DNA of 43,981 bases from a virus (Duplodnaviria; Heunggongvirae; Uroviricota; Caudoviricetes). Both the position numbers and the translations under genes were made by a program. Shown here one piece after another: positions 8,921 to 31,221 of this stretch; position 1 is the first letter of the stretch; each line of letters opens with the position of its first letter. The stretch spans positions 1-43,981 of the IMG/VR virus record IMGVR_UViG_3300045988_012512. One strand, written 5' to 3'. The notes beneath the pieces were generated by a model. That model did no database searches, was not told the origin of the DNA, and worked only from the letters and a program-made list of their open reading frames with translations.

Positions 8921-9028
8921 TCTTTAATCCTTTGGTTAAGAGGTTACAGGTTAACGATAAATGCGCCAGACGGGAACCACCCGCTTTTCGTGTGCGACAC
9001 TAGGCGCAAACTTATTCTATCACATTAC

Positions 9029-9057
9029 TTGCACACCCCAATATAATAGGGTACTAT
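9029..9057 (+). promoter_or_regulatory. sigma70-type promoter (TTGCAC-17-TACTAT) for the plus-strand island
   Basis: Canonical spacing; same promoter architecture recurs at 18527, 29673 and 30772. Confidence 0.55.
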
Positions 9058-9087
9058 TCACTTACACCAACAATGAAGGGGTTTAAA

Positions 9088-15837: not shown

Positions 15838-15860
15838 AAAAGGGGACCGAAGTCCCCTTA
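15838..15860 (-). terminator. intrinsic terminator after the major capsid gene
   Basis: Minus strand reads AAGGGGACTTCGGTCCCCTT followed by a T-run. Confidence 0.6.
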
Positions 15861-17683: not shown

Positions 17684-17711
17684 GAATAAATTATTCCAAC
17701 ATACAAGGCAA

Positions 17712-17975
17712 CTATTCCAGAATATTCCTCACGTAATCCTGCAACATGAACACTTTCAGTCTCAGTTGCCGTGTGCATTCGGCGTTCTGAACGTCGATGG
17801 CTAAATCCTCGTCAGCGTCGCTACTTGGCGGTGCCAGTTTGCACGGTGGTTGCATCATCGTCGTATCCGGGGATGGAATTGGCGTTTGCAACGGCGCGGG
17901 ACTTGAGCAGGACGCGAGCATCATCGAAAGTGCACACGCTGCGACCAGGCGTTTTAATGTACTTAACGACTTCAC
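17712..17975 (-). CDS. o-spanin (Rz1-like outer-membrane lipoprotein)
   Basis: Signal peptide with lipobox LAS-C, Pro-rich mature part; start embedded in the i-spanin gene. Confidence 0.7.
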   Translation of the reverse strand: MKSLSTLKRLVAACALSMMLASCSSPAPLQTPIPSPDTTMMQPPCKLAPPSSDADEDLAIDVQNAECTRQLRLKVFMLQDYVRNILE

Positions 17976-18207
17976 GTGTAATTACCTCTGATTTCGTCTT
18001 ACCTTCGTTGTCAGCGGCTGCGGCCTTTGATTCATCCTGCTGCTGCCGTTGTGTTTTCTTCGCTAGCTCAGCCTGTGCTTTCTGCTGTTGCTGCGAAACG
18101 AGATTAGCACGGCCTTCACCCCAGCCGCTGCGGTATTGATAGATGCCGTGTGCGTAGGCCAGGACGACGAAACATGCTCCGGCTACGACAGTTGCTTTAA
18201 GATTCAT
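17821..18207 (-). CDS. i-spanin (Rz-like)
   Basis: N-terminal transmembrane helix then Gln/Ala-rich coiled coil; overlapped architecture with the o-spanin. Confidence 0.65.
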   Translation of the reverse strand: MNLKATVVAGACFVVLAYAHGIYQYRSGWGEGRANLVSQQQQKAQAELAKKTQRQQQDESKAAAADNEGKTKSEVITREVVKYIKTPGRSVCTFDDARVLLKSRAVANANSIPGYDDDATTVQTGTAK

Positions 18208-18231
18208 GTTTCCCCTTTCTCGATAAGTAAA

Positions 18232-18258
18232 GCCCCGCCTTAAAGCGGGGCGCTAGTC
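18232..18258 (-). repeat. 27-nt conserved hairpin element (AGCGCCCCGCTTTAAGGCGGGGCTTTA), copy 1
   Basis: Near-identical to the plus-strand element at 31042..31068 (one mismatch, in the loop). Confidence 0.6.
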
Positions 18259-18526
18259 CTTATCATTTAAACATAGAAACGGCGTAATCTCAGTAAACCA
18301 GTTACTTTTTACACAAGCAATAGAGTATGGCCCTTCCGAACGCGTCAGCGTAACTACACTCAGGACTTACGTCCCGCTCCGTTACCTGCCCGCGCCGCGG
18401 TCGCTTGTTCATACTTCACAAGCTCAGGTGGAGCTTATCATATTTTCAGTGAAAAGTCAACTATTCGAATAGTTTATTCCAACGTTTACAATTGAGTGGA
18501 ATAACTGGAATACGTAAATAAATAGT

Positions 18527-18555
18527 TTGCGCACACCAACATAATAGGGTACTAT
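18527..18555 (+). promoter_or_regulatory. sigma70-type promoter (TTGCGC-17-TACTAT) for the DnaN-like gene
   Basis: Spacer and -10 region nearly identical to the promoter at 9029. Confidence 0.55.
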
Positions 18556-18582
18556 TCAGTTAACTTAAACAGGAGATGAGAA

Positions 18583-19104
18583 ATGGTTACTACAGTAATT
18601 ACTTTCCCTGCGTATGTAGGGGCAAAAATCTGCAGGGCTAAAAATGATGTGCGCTACTATTTGAACGCTTTTTACATAGACCCTGAAGGATTGATAGTGT
18701 CTACGGACGGTCATAGATTGTTCTGCGACAATGTGAAGACCAATGTTGAGAAAGGGACTCTCATAGACATCAAAGGGAGAGAGCCTTCTAAATTTAACTA
18801 CGCAGAGGTAAACCACGACAACGGCAGTGTAACTTTCTATGACGATAATCGTGCGCTTATATGCACGCTTCCGGTAGATGTTGTAGAAGGAAACTTTCCT
18901 GACTGGAGACGCGTGGCGAACATCACACCGGGTGTTGTCGATAGTATAGGGTTCACTCTGCGCTATTTGGCAGACGCGTACAAGATTTCTAAGGCATACA
19001 AAAATGAAATTGCTCGTTTCGATTTCCAGGACCAAACCAGAGGATGTAAAATACTATTTTCAAACACGGCCTTTATGGTGTTAATGCCTGCGCGATTTAA
19101 ATAA
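18583..19104 (+). CDS. truncated DNA polymerase III beta sliding-clamp (DnaN) homologue
   Basis: DVRYYLN, STDGHRL, FPDWRRV and C-terminal VLMPARFK match E. coli DnaN motifs DVRYYLNG, TDGHRL, FPDYRRV, VMPMRL; AGGAG RBS, own promoter and terminator. Confidence 0.7.
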   Translation: MVTTVITFPAYVGAKICRAKNDVRYYLNAFYIDPEGLIVSTDGHRLFCDNVKTNVEKGTLIDIKGREPSKFNYAEVNHDNGSVTFYDDNRALICTLPVDVVEGNFPDWRRVANITPGVVDSIGFTLRYLADAYKISKAYKNEIARFDFQDQTRGCKILFSNTAFMVLMPARFK

Positions 19105-19108
19105 AACT

Positions 19109-19131
19109 AAGGCCCCATAATGGGGCCTTTT
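19109..19131. terminator. bidirectional intrinsic terminator (AAGGCCCC-ATAAT-GGGGCCTT)
   Basis: GC stem with T-run; lies between convergent genes. Confidence 0.7.
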
Positions 19132-19132
19132 A

Positions 19133-19591
19133 TCATTCTGTCTTAGAGACCTTCGCCGCTTTGCTTACGGCCTCTGCACCATCGGCATCAGTAACTTTAA
19201 CGAAGTATTCACCAGCCGCATTAACAGTCAGAGACAGAGCCTCTTCCGGGGCGTTCACCACTTCCTTCCCGTCTTTGTACCAGGTCAGTACATACGGCGC
19301 TTTACCCGCCTTAACTTCGACGGTGATGGTGGCGCTACCGTCGACCAGCTCGGTGTCTTTCGGTTGCACAGAGAAATACACATCACCAGCATCTGCCAGA
19401 TACGGAATCTCATAAAGCATACCAGCAGCAGAGAGTGCGATACCGGTCTTGTCCGCATACGGCATCTCGTCTACAGGTGTACCTAGTACACTTTCATCTT
19501 CAACGTAGGTTACGTTCTCACCAGAACCGGATACACGGGCGTACTGGACTACGCGACGCGACGGCACATCAGTTACTTTAAAAAAGCCCAT
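19133..19591 (-). CDS. Ig-like domain protein
   Basis: C-terminal Ig-like signature PYVLTWYKDGKEV...GEYFVKVTDADG. Confidence 0.5.
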   Translation of the reverse strand: MGFFKVTDVPSRRVVQYARVSGSGENVTYVEDESVLGTPVDEMPYADKTGIALSAAGMLYEIPYLADAGDVYFSVQPKDTELVDGSATITVEVKAGKAPYVLTWYKDGKEVVNAPEEALSLTVNAAGEYFVKVTDADGAEAVSKAAKVSKTE

Positions 19592-29642: not shown

Positions 29643-29672
29643 CTCTGTCTCTCCTCTCGCTTGTGTAAATGA

Positions 29673-29701
29673 ATAGTAGCCTATTCTATCTTAGCGTGCA
29701 A
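29673..29701 (-). promoter_or_regulatory. sigma70-type promoter (TTGCAC-17-TACTAT)
   Basis: Same architecture as the promoters at 9029 and 30772. Confidence 0.5.
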
Positions 29702-29858
29702 GTAAATTTTATTGGTGTTTGTATTGTTGTATCTCCCGCAATAGTCGCTTCGATTGTGGCGTTTGGTGAAAGTGTCGCTTTTTGACGACACTAAGTTAAA
29801 GTTGTACGCTGCTGTGTAGCAGCGTAAGTCACTCAGTAAAATCCCAAACTATTGAACA

Positions 29859-30737: not shown

Positions 30738-30771
30738 AACCACCACTCCTCTGTCTCGTTTCGATAAGTGA

Positions 30772-30800
30772 ATAGTATCCTATTATATTGGGGTGTGCAA
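30772..30800 (-). promoter_or_regulatory. sigma70-type early promoter (TTGCAC-17-TACTAT)
   Basis: -35, spacer and -10 nearly identical to the promoter at 9029..9057. Confidence 0.55.
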
Positions 30801-31152
30801 GAGAATAGTTACGTTGCCGTTGTGATTCTTTCGTTTCTTTAAAGAGTACGCAACGCAGTGGGTGGGCGATAGCCCACCCCAGCGGAGTGAAGTACTCTCT
30901 ACCTTGCTTACGGCAACTAAAGAAACTTTTAATTATCAAGTACTTATGAATGGAGGTAAAATTTAAATAGACGGGGTCTTTCTTGTCACTTGCTGTTACT
31001 TTTAGGAAACTTAGATACTAACGTTACCAAGAGTACTGTTTAGCGCCCCGCTTTAGGGCGGGGCTTTAAGTACCCGAGACTTAAGAATAATGTTTCTAAG
31101 TAATTCTGAACTAAGGCCCTTCGATACGTTGATTTTACAGCTACATTTTATT
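30801..31152. promoter_or_regulatory. divergent control region with nested palindromes, AGTAC repeats and a conserved hairpin
   Basis: About 350 bp without credible ORFs between divergent operons; inverted repeat AGAGTAC/GTACTCT around an 8-bp GC hairpin; hairpin element at 31042..31068. Confidence 0.5.
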
Positions 31153-31192
31153 TTGTCAATAGGTTGTGTTTAGTTATTATAGGTGTTATAGT
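31153..31192 (+). promoter_or_regulatory. tandem sigma70-type promoters (TTGTCA-16-TATTAT and TTGTGT-17-TATAGT) for the plus-strand operon
   Basis: Hexamers with canonical spacing upstream of the gene at 31222. Confidence 0.45.
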
Positions 31193-31221
31193 TGTTTAAC
31201 TTGATAAAGAGGGCGTGTAAA

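What the first reader, a model, noticed from the sequence alone, without database searches (positions are those of the whole stretch)
18259..18582. Long non-coding spacer with a 16-bp perfect palindrome upstream of the DnaN-like gene
This is the largest ORF-free stretch inside the structural block. It holds the perfect palindrome AACTATTCGAATAGTT (18459..18474), whose half-site GAATAGT is the same motif found in the -10 flank of most of the phage promoters, plus GGAATA repeats nearby. It could be an operator for the DnaN-like promoter, a late-promoter control site, or a packaging-related site.
Basis: seen in the sequence. Interest (0 to 1): 0.45.

Follow-up and report, generated by a model that had tools for sequence, protein, structure and literature searches.

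The report
Late-operon promoter with structured leader RNA
The "empty" spacer is the control region for the phage's capsid and tail genes: a leftward promoter, with the palindrome next to it, that transcribes a conserved folded non-coding RNA not found in Rfam or in the papers searched.

Summary
The palindrome AACTATTCGAATAGTT is at 18459-18474 and is unique in the window. A 16-bp perfect palindrome is expected 0.69 times per genome by chance, so only context and conservation make it meaningful.

The window is a complete Kagunavirus genome (Guernseyvirinae). The spacer lies between two divergent genes: i-spanin on the minus strand and a swappable plus-strand cassette gene, the "DnaN-like" gene.

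The block 18208-18512 is 94-99% identical in about 180 phages. It persists in relatives with no cassette, and it is better conserved than the flanking spanin, scaffold and capsid genes.

On the minus strand the block holds:
- a sigma70 extended -10 promoter, T(T/A)GACT-17-TGn-TA(A/C)GCT, with a predicted start near 18425;
- the palindrome abutting its -35, centred near -41.5;
- a ~110-nt two-hairpin RNA (18427..18317) supported by covariation;
- a terminator hairpin (18251..18232) just before the spanin ribosome-binding site.

The annotated 36-aa ORF is frameshifted or absent in relatives. No Rfam family, HK022 put, bacterial or E. coli match was found.

Best reading: this is the restart promoter, operator and structured leader of the capsid/tail operon. 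The "late-promoter control site" idea is supported. The DnaN-operator and packaging ideas are not. The binding protein and the RNA's role remain inferred.

The parts
18459..18474 (.). 16-bp perfect palindrome AACTATTC|GAATAGTT. Its centre at 18466.5 is about -41.5 from the predicted minus-strand start, and it overlaps the -35 hexamer by 2 bp. Candidate operator or activator site.
   Evidence: I10. Only 1.1% of cells differ among 40 late copies. It is absent from the early-region paralogs. In Ent2-type Jerseyviruses it is 10/16 homologous and replaced by the dyad TACTTT-N6-AAAGTA.
18467..18479 (.). Dyad GAATA-N3-TATTC (GAATAGTTTATTC), centred near -48. It overlaps the right half of the palindrome. 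This is the dyad shared by the Kagunavirus-type and Ent2-type late regions.
   Evidence: Read from the sequences. The spacing to the -35 (6 nt) is the same in both types.
18475..18512 (.). Upstream region with three GGAATA hexamers: 18475-18480 inverted, 18498-18503 and 18507-18512 direct. The 38-bp layout is conserved between the two diverged types.
   Evidence: (I11). The cluster is significant. In cassette-less relatives the block ends at 18512.
18455..18460 (-). -35 hexamer TTGACT of the leftward promoter (TAGACT in Ent2-type).
   Evidence: Invariant in 40 late and 5 early copies. A 17-bp spacer is kept in all lineages.
18432..18440 (-). Extended -10 element TGn-TAAGCT (TGA TAAGCT here).
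   Evidence: TG is invariant while n is A, C, G or T in different lineages. The -10 is TAAGCT or TACGCT. The start near 18425/18424 is inferred from spacing and has not been mapped.
18317..18427 (-). Conserved structured non-coding RNA core. P1 is a 5'-terminal hairpin (18423..18403). P2 is a long irregular stem-loop (18400..18336, GUAA apical loop at 18370..18367). These are followed by single-stranded AAGGGCC (18335..18329) and UAUUG.
   Evidence: Covariance model hit of 135 bits, the only copy in the window. 95.8% of cells are paired, and 16 of 28 pairs have compensatory changes against 8.2 in shuffles. G.U cells outnumber A.C cells 103 to 7. No Rfam match.
18252..18316 (-). 3' part of the leader RNA. 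It is highly conserved in the Kagunavirus type and partly shared with the early paralogs (motif GUUUCUAU).
18222..18251 (-). Intrinsic terminator or attenuator hairpin GCCCCGC-UUUAAG-GCGGGGC with tail UUUACUUAUC, about 14 nt before the spanin ribosome-binding site.
   Evidence: The stem covaries: GCCCTGC/GCAGGGC, GCCCGGC/GCCGGGC, GCCCGAC/GTCGGGC. A 28-bp copy lies at 31041-31068 on the plus strand.
18302..18412 (-). 36-aa ORF annotated as a hypothetical protein in some relatives. Judged not to be a gene.
   Evidence: Frameshifts truncate it to 9-17 aa in at least 5 late copies. The frame differs in early copies. There is no ATG in E1-type or Ent2-type copies.
18522..18569 (+). Phage-type promoter copy serving the cassette gene: -35 TTGCGC at 18528-18533, -10 TACTAT at 18551-18556, with the AATAG-N4-CTATT core. 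It is missing in cassette-less relatives.
   Evidence: The orientation is inferred because the same motif sits directly upstream of a ribosome-binding site and start codon at 9024-9071, 29659-29706 and 30758-30805.
18583..19104 (+). Cassette gene ('DnaN-like', 173 aa). This is context only and not part of the conserved element.
   Evidence: A bidirectional terminator at 19109-19129 follows it.
17821..18207 (-). i-spanin, the first gene downstream of the leader, followed by scaffold, major capsid and tail genes.
   Evidence: PHROG 2536, 5e-55.

Best explanation
The spacer is the control region that restarts leftward (minus-strand) transcription of the capsid and tail genes. Restart is needed because the upstream head genes end at a terminator.

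Host sigma70 RNA polymerase is predicted to use an extended -10 promoter: -35 TTGACT at 18460..18455, a 17-bp spacer, and TGA-TAAGCT at 18440..18432. The predicted start is near 18425.

The 16-bp palindrome abuts the -35 (centre about -41.5). It overlaps a second dyad, GAATA-N3-TATTC (centre about -48), and lies next to three GGAATA hexamers. Together these most likely form the binding region of a dimeric or multimeric regulator that times or tunes this promoter. No such sites accompany the paralogous promoter in the early region of relatives.

The transcript begins with a conserved, non-coding, two-hairpin RNA. P1 sits at the very 5' end and P2 is about two helical turns long. The RNA runs about 200 nt to a terminator-like hairpin just before the spanin ribosome-binding site.

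The leader most likely sets how much transcription or stable mRNA reaches the late genes. Possible routes are 5'-hairpin stabilisation, attenuation at the hairpin, or modification of the polymerase.

Shown by comparison: the promoter elements, the RNA fold, the transcribed strand, the non-coding status, and independence from the cassette gene. Inferred: the transcription start, protein binding at the palindrome, and what the leader RNA actually does.
For: 1. Gene layout. Spanin runs leftward and the cassette gene rightward. A bidirectional terminator at 19109-19129 stops leftward transcripts coming from the head genes.

2. Conservation. The block 18208-18512 is at least 94% identical in 179 of 181 phage records. 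In Jerseyvirus SETP13 it is 94-99% identical while the flanking genes are 55-88%. In 17 loci the block has a median identity of about 97%, against about 91% for spanin and 87% for the capsid gene. It persists where no cassette exists.

3. Promoter. The -35, the TG and the -10 are invariant within the Kagunavirus-type late and early copies, and each hexamer differs at one position in Ent2-type Jerseyviruses (TAGACT, TACGCT). The n of TGn takes all four bases across lineages. The spacer is always 17 bp although its sequence diverges.

4. RNA. A covariance model finds 67 copies in Guernseyvirinae loci. 95.8% of cells are paired. 16 of 28 pairs carry double changes, against 8.2 in shuffles (0 of 500 reach it) and 1-4 in slid controls. 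G.U cells outnumber A.C cells 103 to 7, and only 86% of cells would pair on the opposite strand. The terminator stem also covaries.

5. The ORF is broken or absent in relatives.

6. Palindrome. It is among the best conserved segments and is absent from the early paralogs, which keep the same promoter and RNA. Ent2-type phages have other dyads at the same position. The GAATA cluster is never matched in 200 shuffles.
Against: There are no transcript data. The start site, the 3' end and termination are all predictions. The -10 hexamer matches the consensus at only 3 of 6 positions, and the tool's simple promoter scan did not list it.

A 16-bp palindrome is expected by chance. It is not kept as a palindrome in Ent2-type phages.

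The very high conservation could partly reflect recent mosaic exchange of the block between genera rather than site-by-site selection.

No candidate regulator could be tied to the site. Only an HTH_17 protein and a weak NinH-like protein were found among the ten proteins scanned.

The covariation counts come from an alignment fitted to the model.

In the early paralogs the RNA unit is followed by another promoter rather than directly by genes. That arrangement suits a stand-alone RNA as well as a leader.

Serratia phage Tsm2 has a leader at the same position that the models do not detect.
Confidence: 0.6

Rival explanations
1. The block is a stand-alone gene for a trans-acting small RNA of about 200 nt, with its own promoter and terminator. 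The RNA acts on host or phage targets, for example through the conserved single-stranded AAGGGCC and UAUUG segments. The palindrome regulates that RNA gene. Read-through into spanin is incidental.
For: The block has a self-contained promoter-RNA-hairpin layout. In the early region of relatives, a paralogous unit is followed by another promoter rather than directly by a gene. Conserved unpaired motifs follow P2.
Against: The U-tract is short (UUUACUUAUC) and is only UU in Ent2-type phages. By established knowledge, that is poor for efficient termination or Hfq binding. In cassette-less phages this is the only conserved promoter between the upstream terminator and the spanin-capsid genes, so read-through must feed them. 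No target was identified.
Confidence: 0.2
2. The palindrome has no function of its own. It is a chance dyad carried inside a block that stays uniform because it is a recombination junction next to a cassette swap site. Only the promoter and RNA are functional.
For: A palindrome of this size is expected 0.69 times per genome. It is not preserved as a palindrome in Ent2-type phages (10/16 identical). The block shows mosaic distribution across genera with sharp boundaries at the spanin start and at 18512.
Against: It is as well conserved as the RNA and better conserved than the adjacent 18475-18512 region (1.1% against 6.9% differing cells). Dyad symmetry recurs at the same place in the diverged type. 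It sits exactly against the -35 and is the main difference from the early paralog promoter.
Confidence: 0.13
3. One reading: the palindrome is an operator, or part of a rightward promoter, for the DnaN-like cassette gene.
For: A weak plus-strand candidate promoter, TTCGAA-17-TACAAT, overlaps the palindrome (read from the sequence). Ent2-type phages have TTGAAT-16-TACATT at the equivalent place.
Against: The cassette gene has its own strong phage-type promoter at 18528-18556, next to its ribosome-binding site. The palindrome is about 97 bp upstream of that start. The block is unchanged in phages with different cassettes or none, and where there is none a rightward transcript would run straight into a terminator.
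Confidence: 0.05
4. The block is a DNA-level site: a packaging (pac) site or a replication origin.
For: It is an AT-rich repeat cluster next to a GC-rich segment. Some relatives carry a second copy in the early divergent region, where the cumulative GC skew turns.
Against: The core shows compensatory base-pair changes with a strong G.U over A.C bias, which is an RNA signature and not a DNA one. There is no skew change at 18.4 kb. By established knowledge, pac sites of headful phages usually lie in or near the small terminase gene, which here is about 6 kb away.
Confidence: 0.02

Closest known systems
Lambda late control region (pR' promoter, 6S leader RNA, tR' terminator, Q antiterminator)
   Same: A constitutive-looking sigma70 promoter is followed by a ~200-nt non-coding leader that ends at an intrinsic terminator. 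This unit lies immediately upstream of lysis (Rz-like spanin) genes and then head and tail genes. A regulatory DNA site is placed at the promoter.
   Different: No Q-like protein was found among the ten proteins scanned. The dyad lies upstream of the -35 rather than between -35 and -10. The leader is a strongly conserved folded RNA. The phage is virulent. No sequence relationship was found.
HK022 put RNAs (putL, putR): protein-independent processive antitermination (PMC9378689)
   Same: A two-stem-loop RNA starts at the very 5' end of the transcript. One or two paralogous copies per genome sit at the heads of long operons, upstream of terminators. The fold is kept by covariation. No dedicated antiterminator protein is evident.
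   Different: The covariance model finds nothing in HK022 at E up to 10. The core is about 110 nt against about 70 nt. No test of read-through or of dependence on the polymerase zinc-binding domain is possible here. The window genome has only one copy.
5'-terminal stem-loop mRNA stabilisers (ompA-type) and phage RNase III leader sites (T7, lambda N leader)
   Same: P1 begins 2-3 nt from the predicted 5' end. P2 is an irregular duplex of about 23 bp, which is the size of an RNase III substrate.
   Different: Those elements need little sequence conservation. Here unpaired and basal nucleotides (ACCGCGG, UUCGGAAGGGCC) are invariant across diverged lineages, which suggests a specific partner.
Class II activator or repressor sites centred near -41.5 (CRP/FNR-type architecture)
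   Same: A 16-bp perfect dyad is centred about 41.5 bp upstream of the predicted start and overlaps the -35. The -10 hexamer is weak.
   Different: The sequence matches no consensus I could recall. The -35 is already 5 of 6. The position depends on an unmapped start site.
Repeated Kagunavirus 'phage promoter' motif tgAATAGTa-ccTATTat-T (fBC-Eco01 paper, PMC9825357)
   Same: It shares the pentamers AATAG and CTATT with the palindrome. One copy lies in the same spacer (18522-18569).
   Different: In the promoters the arms face each other across 4 bp (AATAG-N4-CTATT) and overlap the -10. In the palindrome they are everted (CTATT-CG-AATAG) and lie upstream of a different promoter type. Ent2 keeps the first but not the second.

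Membership tests
Sigma70 extended -10 promoter | A -35-like hexamer, a 16-18 bp spacer, TG at -15/-14, and a -10 with A at position 2 and T at position 6 | tested here: met
   TTGACT-17-TGA-TAAGCT is at 18460..18432. These elements and the 17-bp spacing are kept in all lineages while the spacer sequence and the n of TGn vary.
Sigma70 extended -10 promoter | A transcript 5' end 6-8 nt downstream of the -10 | not testable with these tools
   No transcriptome or 5'-end data for any Guernseyvirinae phage were found.
Structured non-coding RNA (new motif) | Base pairs maintained by compensatory changes beyond what controls give | tested here: met
   16 of 28 pairs have double changes against 8.2 in shuffles (0 of 500) and 1-4 in slid controls. 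95.8% of cells are paired. Caveat: the alignment was fitted to the model.
Structured non-coding RNA (new motif) | Not protein-coding | tested here: met
   The 36-aa ORF is frameshifted or truncated in several copies, and the start codon is missing in E1-type and Ent2-type copies.
Any Rfam family | Score at or above the gathering threshold | tested here: not met
   There were 0 hits at gathering thresholds over the whole window. Only chance-level hits (E of 1.3 or more) appeared on 18150-18650.
HK022 put RNA | Sequence and structure similarity to putL or putR | tested here: not met
   Model R1 found nothing in the HK022 genome at E up to 10. The reverse test, a put model against the window, was not possible.
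HK022 put RNA | Cis-acting suppression of downstream terminators without a protein factor, dependent on the beta-prime zinc-binding domain | not testable with these tools
   This needs read-through assays and rpoC mutants (PMC9378689).
Lambda-type Q-dependent late control | A Q-family antiterminator gene in the genome | tested here: inconclusive
   None was found among 10 early or regulatory candidates scanned against Pfam and PHROGs. Not every ORF was scanned.
Intrinsic terminator | A GC-rich hairpin directly followed by a U-rich tract | tested here: met
   An 8-bp stem (7 GC pairs) with tail TTTACTTATC is at 18251..18222. The tail is interrupted, and it is weaker (UUAGCG) in Ent2-type phages, so efficiency is doubtful.
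Operator / transcription-factor site | Dyad symmetry conserved at a fixed position relative to a promoter | tested here: inconclusive
   The palindrome is perfect and conserved within the Kagunavirus-type block. In Ent2-type phages it is replaced by a different dyad. The shared dyad is GAATA-N3-TATTC. By chance 0.69 such palindromes are expected per genome.
Operator / transcription-factor site | Demonstrated protein binding | not testable with these tools
   This needs a gel shift, a footprint or ChIP.

The most novel reading that the evidence does not exclude
The two-hairpin RNA may be a new, put-like, protein-independent device. Transcribed at the very start of the leftward operons of virulent Guernseyvirinae, it would stay bound to host RNA polymerase and make it resistant to the terminator 175 nt downstream and to later terminators in the roughly 17-kb capsid/tail arm, such as those at 15859 and 11511. 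The palindrome-bound regulator would decide when such modified polymerases are launched. This would be only the second family of RNA-only processive antiterminators, and the first in lytic phages.
Probability: 0.12. Interest if true: 0.8.

Novelty: new variant of a known kind. Interest (0 to 1): 0.55.

Why it matters
Guernseyvirinae (Jersey- and K1-type phages) are widely isolated and used for Salmonella and E. coli biocontrol, yet no transcription map was found for them in the papers searched.

This work gives a testable late-gene control region. It comprises a promoter, candidate operator dyads, and a conserved folded leader RNA. That RNA is absent from Rfam, and no description of it turned up in the papers searched. 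Many GenBank records annotate it as a hypothetical protein.

It also shows that the neighbouring plus-strand slot is a cassette swap site, flanked by this nearly invariant block. That is useful for engineering these phages. If the leader modifies RNA polymerase or mRNA fate, it would add a new RNA regulatory element to the phage toolbox.

Tried and rejected
1. My first reading of the 18522-18569 promoter copy was as a leftward restart promoter. I rejected it. The four long copies each sit directly upstream of a ribosome-binding site and start codon in the other orientation (TTGCAC-17-TACTAT). This copy is also missing in cassette-less phages.

2. The 36-aa ORF as a real gene: rejected.

3. Rfam at gathering and at permissive thresholds: nothing. 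tRNA/tmRNA search: none.

4. blastn of the block against 5,426 E. coli genomes: no match.

5. The genome contigs pattern scan returned 80 loci, all chance matches in GC-rich bacteria. None scored with the covariance model.

6. HK022 put similarity: none.

7. Serratia phage Tsm2 has a leader with an AUUCGGAA motif at the same position. Neither model detects it, so homology is unresolved.

8. An antiterminator pairing was considered between the P2 apical hairpin and the terminator left arm, which are 14/17 complementary (I1). It does not co-vary in L011-type or early copies, so I do not rely on it.

9. A second GAATA cluster at 17684-17723, upstream of the scaffold gene, was considered as a sister promoter. 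It is partly o-spanin coding sequence, has no convincing -10, and is not conserved in Ent2.

10. The terminator stem CCCCGC/GCGGGG equals the stem of the E. coli type I-E CRISPR repeat as I recall it. The loop and flanks differ and Ent2-type stems differ, so I dismissed it as chance.

11. Literature searches for transcript maps or small RNAs in these phages found nothing relevant.

Full report
**What the window is.** The 43,981-bp window is essentially a whole genome of a Kagunavirus (Guernseyvirinae). It is 92-97.5% identical over the 1.4-kb query (17800-19200) to E. coli phages such as fPoEco01, Ivi and Snoke.

Structural and lysis genes run on the minus strand from about 30.7 kb down to 1 kb. 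Two short plus-strand inserts interrupt this arm. The finding lies between the i-spanin gene (minus strand, ATG at 18207) and a 173-aa plus-strand gene annotated as 'DNA polymerase III sliding clamp' (18583-19104). The true intergenic interval is therefore 18208-18582, and it is divergent.

**Checking the observation.**
- The palindrome AACTATTCGAATAGTT is at 18459-18474, perfect and unique.
- GAATAGT occurs 13 times against 4.4 expected.
- Most of those copies belong to a repeated ~35-bp promoter motif. That motif was already published for fBC-Eco01 as tgAATAGTa-ccTATTat-T (PMC9825357).
- The GGAATA copies are present.
- A 16-bp perfect palindrome is expected 0.69 times in a sequence of this size and composition, and 49% of shuffles have one. 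The palindrome alone is therefore not evidence of anything.

**The surprise is conservation.** The spacer is at least 94% identical in 179 of 181 phage records that carry it, including Salmonella Jerseyviruses.

Against Jerseyvirus SETP13, 18211-18510 is 94-99% identical. The adjacent spanin, scaffold and capsid genes are 55-88% identical. In 17 further loci the block is on average better conserved than spanin, scaffold and capsid.

The conserved block ends sharply at the spanin start codon and at 18512.

To the right of 18512 lies a swap site. Different relatives carry the DnaN-like gene, endonuclease VII, a Dam methylase, HNH genes, hypothetical genes, or nothing. Where there is nothing, the terminator of the upstream Hoc-like gene abuts 18512 directly. 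The block is thus independent of the DnaN-like gene.

The high identity across genera may partly reflect mosaic exchange of the block, not only site-by-site selection.

**A conserved leftward promoter.** On the minus strand the block contains TTGACT (18460..18455), a 17-bp spacer, then TGA-TAAGCT (18440..18432).

I compared Kagunavirus-type late copies, early-region paralogs in some relatives, and diverged Jerseyvirus (Ent2-type) copies:
- The -35 stays TTGACT or TAGACT.
- The -10 stays TAAGCT or TACGCT.
- The TG is invariant, while the following base is A, C, G or T in different lineages.
- The spacer is always 17 bp, although its sequence diverges.

This is the pattern expected of an extended -10 sigma70 promoter. 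The predicted start is near 18425; this is inferred, not mapped.

A bidirectional terminator at 19109-19129 stops leftward transcripts from the head genes. This promoter is the only conserved candidate to restart transcription of the spanin, scaffold, capsid and tail genes.

**A conserved structured RNA.** A 36-aa ORF (18412..18302) is annotated in some records. However:
- 1-nt indels truncate it to 9-17 aa in at least five late copies;
- the early copies use other frames;
- E1-type and Ent2-type copies lack the ATG altogether.

Instead, the sequence variants keep base pairs. P1 is a hairpin that begins 2-3 nt from the predicted 5' end. P2 is a long irregular stem-loop. Its base is formed by CCG-C-GGNGCG pairing with CGCN'UU-CGG, and the N-N' pair is C-G, U-A or A-U in different lineages. 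Its apical hairpin changes completely between lineages: GGAC/GUCC, GUGC/GCAC, GUGCC/GGCAC, ACGUC/GACGU and GGGCGC/GCGCCC.

I built a covariance model from 16 sequences with this structure. Results:
- One copy in the window, at 18427..18317 on the minus strand, scoring 135 bits.
- 67 copies in Guernseyvirinae loci, including Ent2-type copies at 39-65 bits.
- On the resulting alignment, 95.8% of cells form standard pairs.
- 16 of 28 pairs carry changes on both sides, against 8.2 in shuffles (0 of 500 reach it) and 1-4 when partners are slid.
- G.U cells outnumber A.C cells 103 to 7. Only 86% of cells would pair if the opposite strand were the RNA.

The last point identifies the minus strand as the transcribed, folded strand. 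That agrees with the promoter and terminator orientation. The caveat is that this alignment was fitted to the model.

After P2 come the invariant unpaired motifs AAGGGCC and UAUUG. These are followed by about 65 conserved nucleotides and then a GC-rich hairpin with a short U-rich tail (18251..18222), 14 nt before the spanin ribosome-binding site. The stem of that hairpin covaries as well.

**The RNA is unclassified.**
- There is no Rfam hit and no tRNA or tmRNA.
- blastn found no match in 5,426 E. coli genomes.
- None of the 80 bacterial pattern hits fetched was real.
- The model found nothing in HK022.
- Literature searches found no transcript map or RNA description for these phages.

**Where the palindrome fits.**
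- Its promoter-proximal two bases are the first two bases of the -35 hexamer.
- Its centre is about 41.5 bp upstream of the predicted start.
- Within the Kagunavirus-type block it is as conserved as the RNA (1.1% differing cells) and more conserved than the 18475-18512 region (6.9%).
- The early-region paralogs keep the same promoter and RNA but have unrelated sequence in place of the palindrome and the GGAATA region. These upstream sites therefore look like an add-on specific to the late copy.
- In Ent2-type Jerseyviruses the homologous 16 bp are only 10/16 identical and not palindromic. Another dyad, TACTTT-N6-AAAGTA, occupies the same place.
- A second dyad, GAATA-N3-TATTC (window 18467-18479, centre about -48), and the 38-bp layout of three GGAATA hexamers are shared by both types.
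- Five GAATA/TATTC sites in 54 bp is a density never seen in 200 shuffles.

Together this points to a protein-binding region next to the promoter.

Ent2 keeps the AATAG-N4-CTATT cores of the repeated promoters while its late dyad differs. The shared GAATAGT word therefore does not show that one regulator serves both kinds of site.

**The cassette promoter.** The copy of the repeated promoter motif at 18522-18569 is best read rightward: TTGCGC-17-TACTAT, with a start near 18563. Like the copies at 9024-9071, 29659-29706 and 30758-30805, it then sits directly upstream of a ribosome-binding site and start codon. It is absent when the cassette is absent. This leaves no need for the palindrome, about 97 bp away, as an operator for the DnaN-like gene.

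**Mechanism, and how sure.**
- The comparative evidence for a leftward sigma70 promoter driving a conserved structured non-coding RNA is strong. I put the promoter at about 0.8 and the RNA fold at about 0.85.
- That the palindrome and GAATA region binds a regulator is plausible but untested (about 0.5).
- What the leader does is inferred. P1 at the extreme 5' end fits an mRNA-stabilising hairpin. P2 has the size of an RNase III substrate. The promoter-leader-terminator-lysis/structural-gene layout resembles lambda pR'-6S-tR'.
- The two-hairpin RNA at the start of long operons, in one or two paralogous copies and with no antiterminator protein in sight, resembles HK022 put (PMC9378689). It shows no sequence relationship to put.
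- The short, interrupted U-tract, which is weaker still in Ent2-type phages, suggests substantial read-through. I therefore favour a cis-acting leader over a stand-alone small RNA. The early paralogs are followed by another promoter, which keeps the stand-alone reading open.

**Verdict.** The palindrome itself is an ordinary and only modestly supported operator candidate. It holds the restart promoter of the capsid/tail operon and an unclassified, covariation-supported leader RNA confined, as far as searched, to Guernseyvirinae.

Noticed in passing
window 30800-31220, and loci L004, L012, L039, L044, L047, L056-L060, L063: In some relatives the early divergent control region carries a paralog of the same promoter and structured RNA, without the palindrome. 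The window lacks it. Instead it has a strong leftward promoter, TTGACA-16-TAAAAT (31159->31132), and a plus-strand copy of the 28-bp terminator module (31041-31068). That module could end a short plus-strand RNA.
   Followed up: partly
window 9024-9071, 18522-18569, 29659-29706, 30758-30805 (also 34433, 34477, 37100): The published 'phage RNA polymerase promoter' motif has a near-palindromic core, AATAG-N4-CTATT, that offers a -10-like hexamer on each strand (TACTAT and TATTAT). Some copies sit where transcription is needed in both directions, so they may be bidirectional sigma70 promoters. No large ORF suggestive of a phage RNA polymerase stood out in the ORF list, but I did not test this.
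   Followed up: partly
window 18513-19130: The plus-strand slot next to the spacer is a cassette swap site. Relatives carry DnaN-like, endonuclease VII, Dam methylase, HNH or hypothetical genes there, or nothing. In fBC-Eco01 the DnaN-like gene sits elsewhere, between the portal and head-morphogenesis genes.
   Followed up: partly
window 18583-19104: The 'DnaN-like' protein matches PHROG 3007, annotated as a RusA-like resolvase, at 1e-35. It matches clamp families only weakly (PHROG 947 at 5e-9; Pfam DNA_pol3_beta_2 at 0.005, below cut-off). Public records name it inconsistently as clamp, RusA-like or hypothetical.
   Followed up: no
whole window: Perfect 12-bp palindromes are depleted, 5 observed against 12.5 +/- 3.5 expected. 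This could reflect avoidance of restriction sites.
   Followed up: no
window 17684-17723: This is the only other place with at least 5 GAATA/TATTC sites in 60 bp. It lies at the o-spanin 3' end, upstream of the scaffold gene, and includes GAATAATTTATTC next to TTGACA. It is partly coding and not conserved in Ent2, so it is probably not a sister control site.
   Followed up: partly
L003 (SETP13), L005 (S103) versus L045/L185 (Ent2): Jerseyviruses carry either the Kagunavirus-type block (94-99% identical to the window) or a diverged Ent2-type block. The module has therefore been exchanged between genera with sharp boundaries.
   Followed up: partly
L185 37471-38478 (Ent2): Ent2 has about 1 kb without annotated genes in its early divergent region. 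It contains several promoter-like sites and hairpins. The RNA model finds no second copy there.
   Followed up: no
window 18244-18260 and 18362-18378: The apical hairpin of the RNA is 14/17 complementary to the left arm and flank of the terminator, a possible alternative pairing. It does not co-vary in copies with other apical hairpins.
   Followed up: partly
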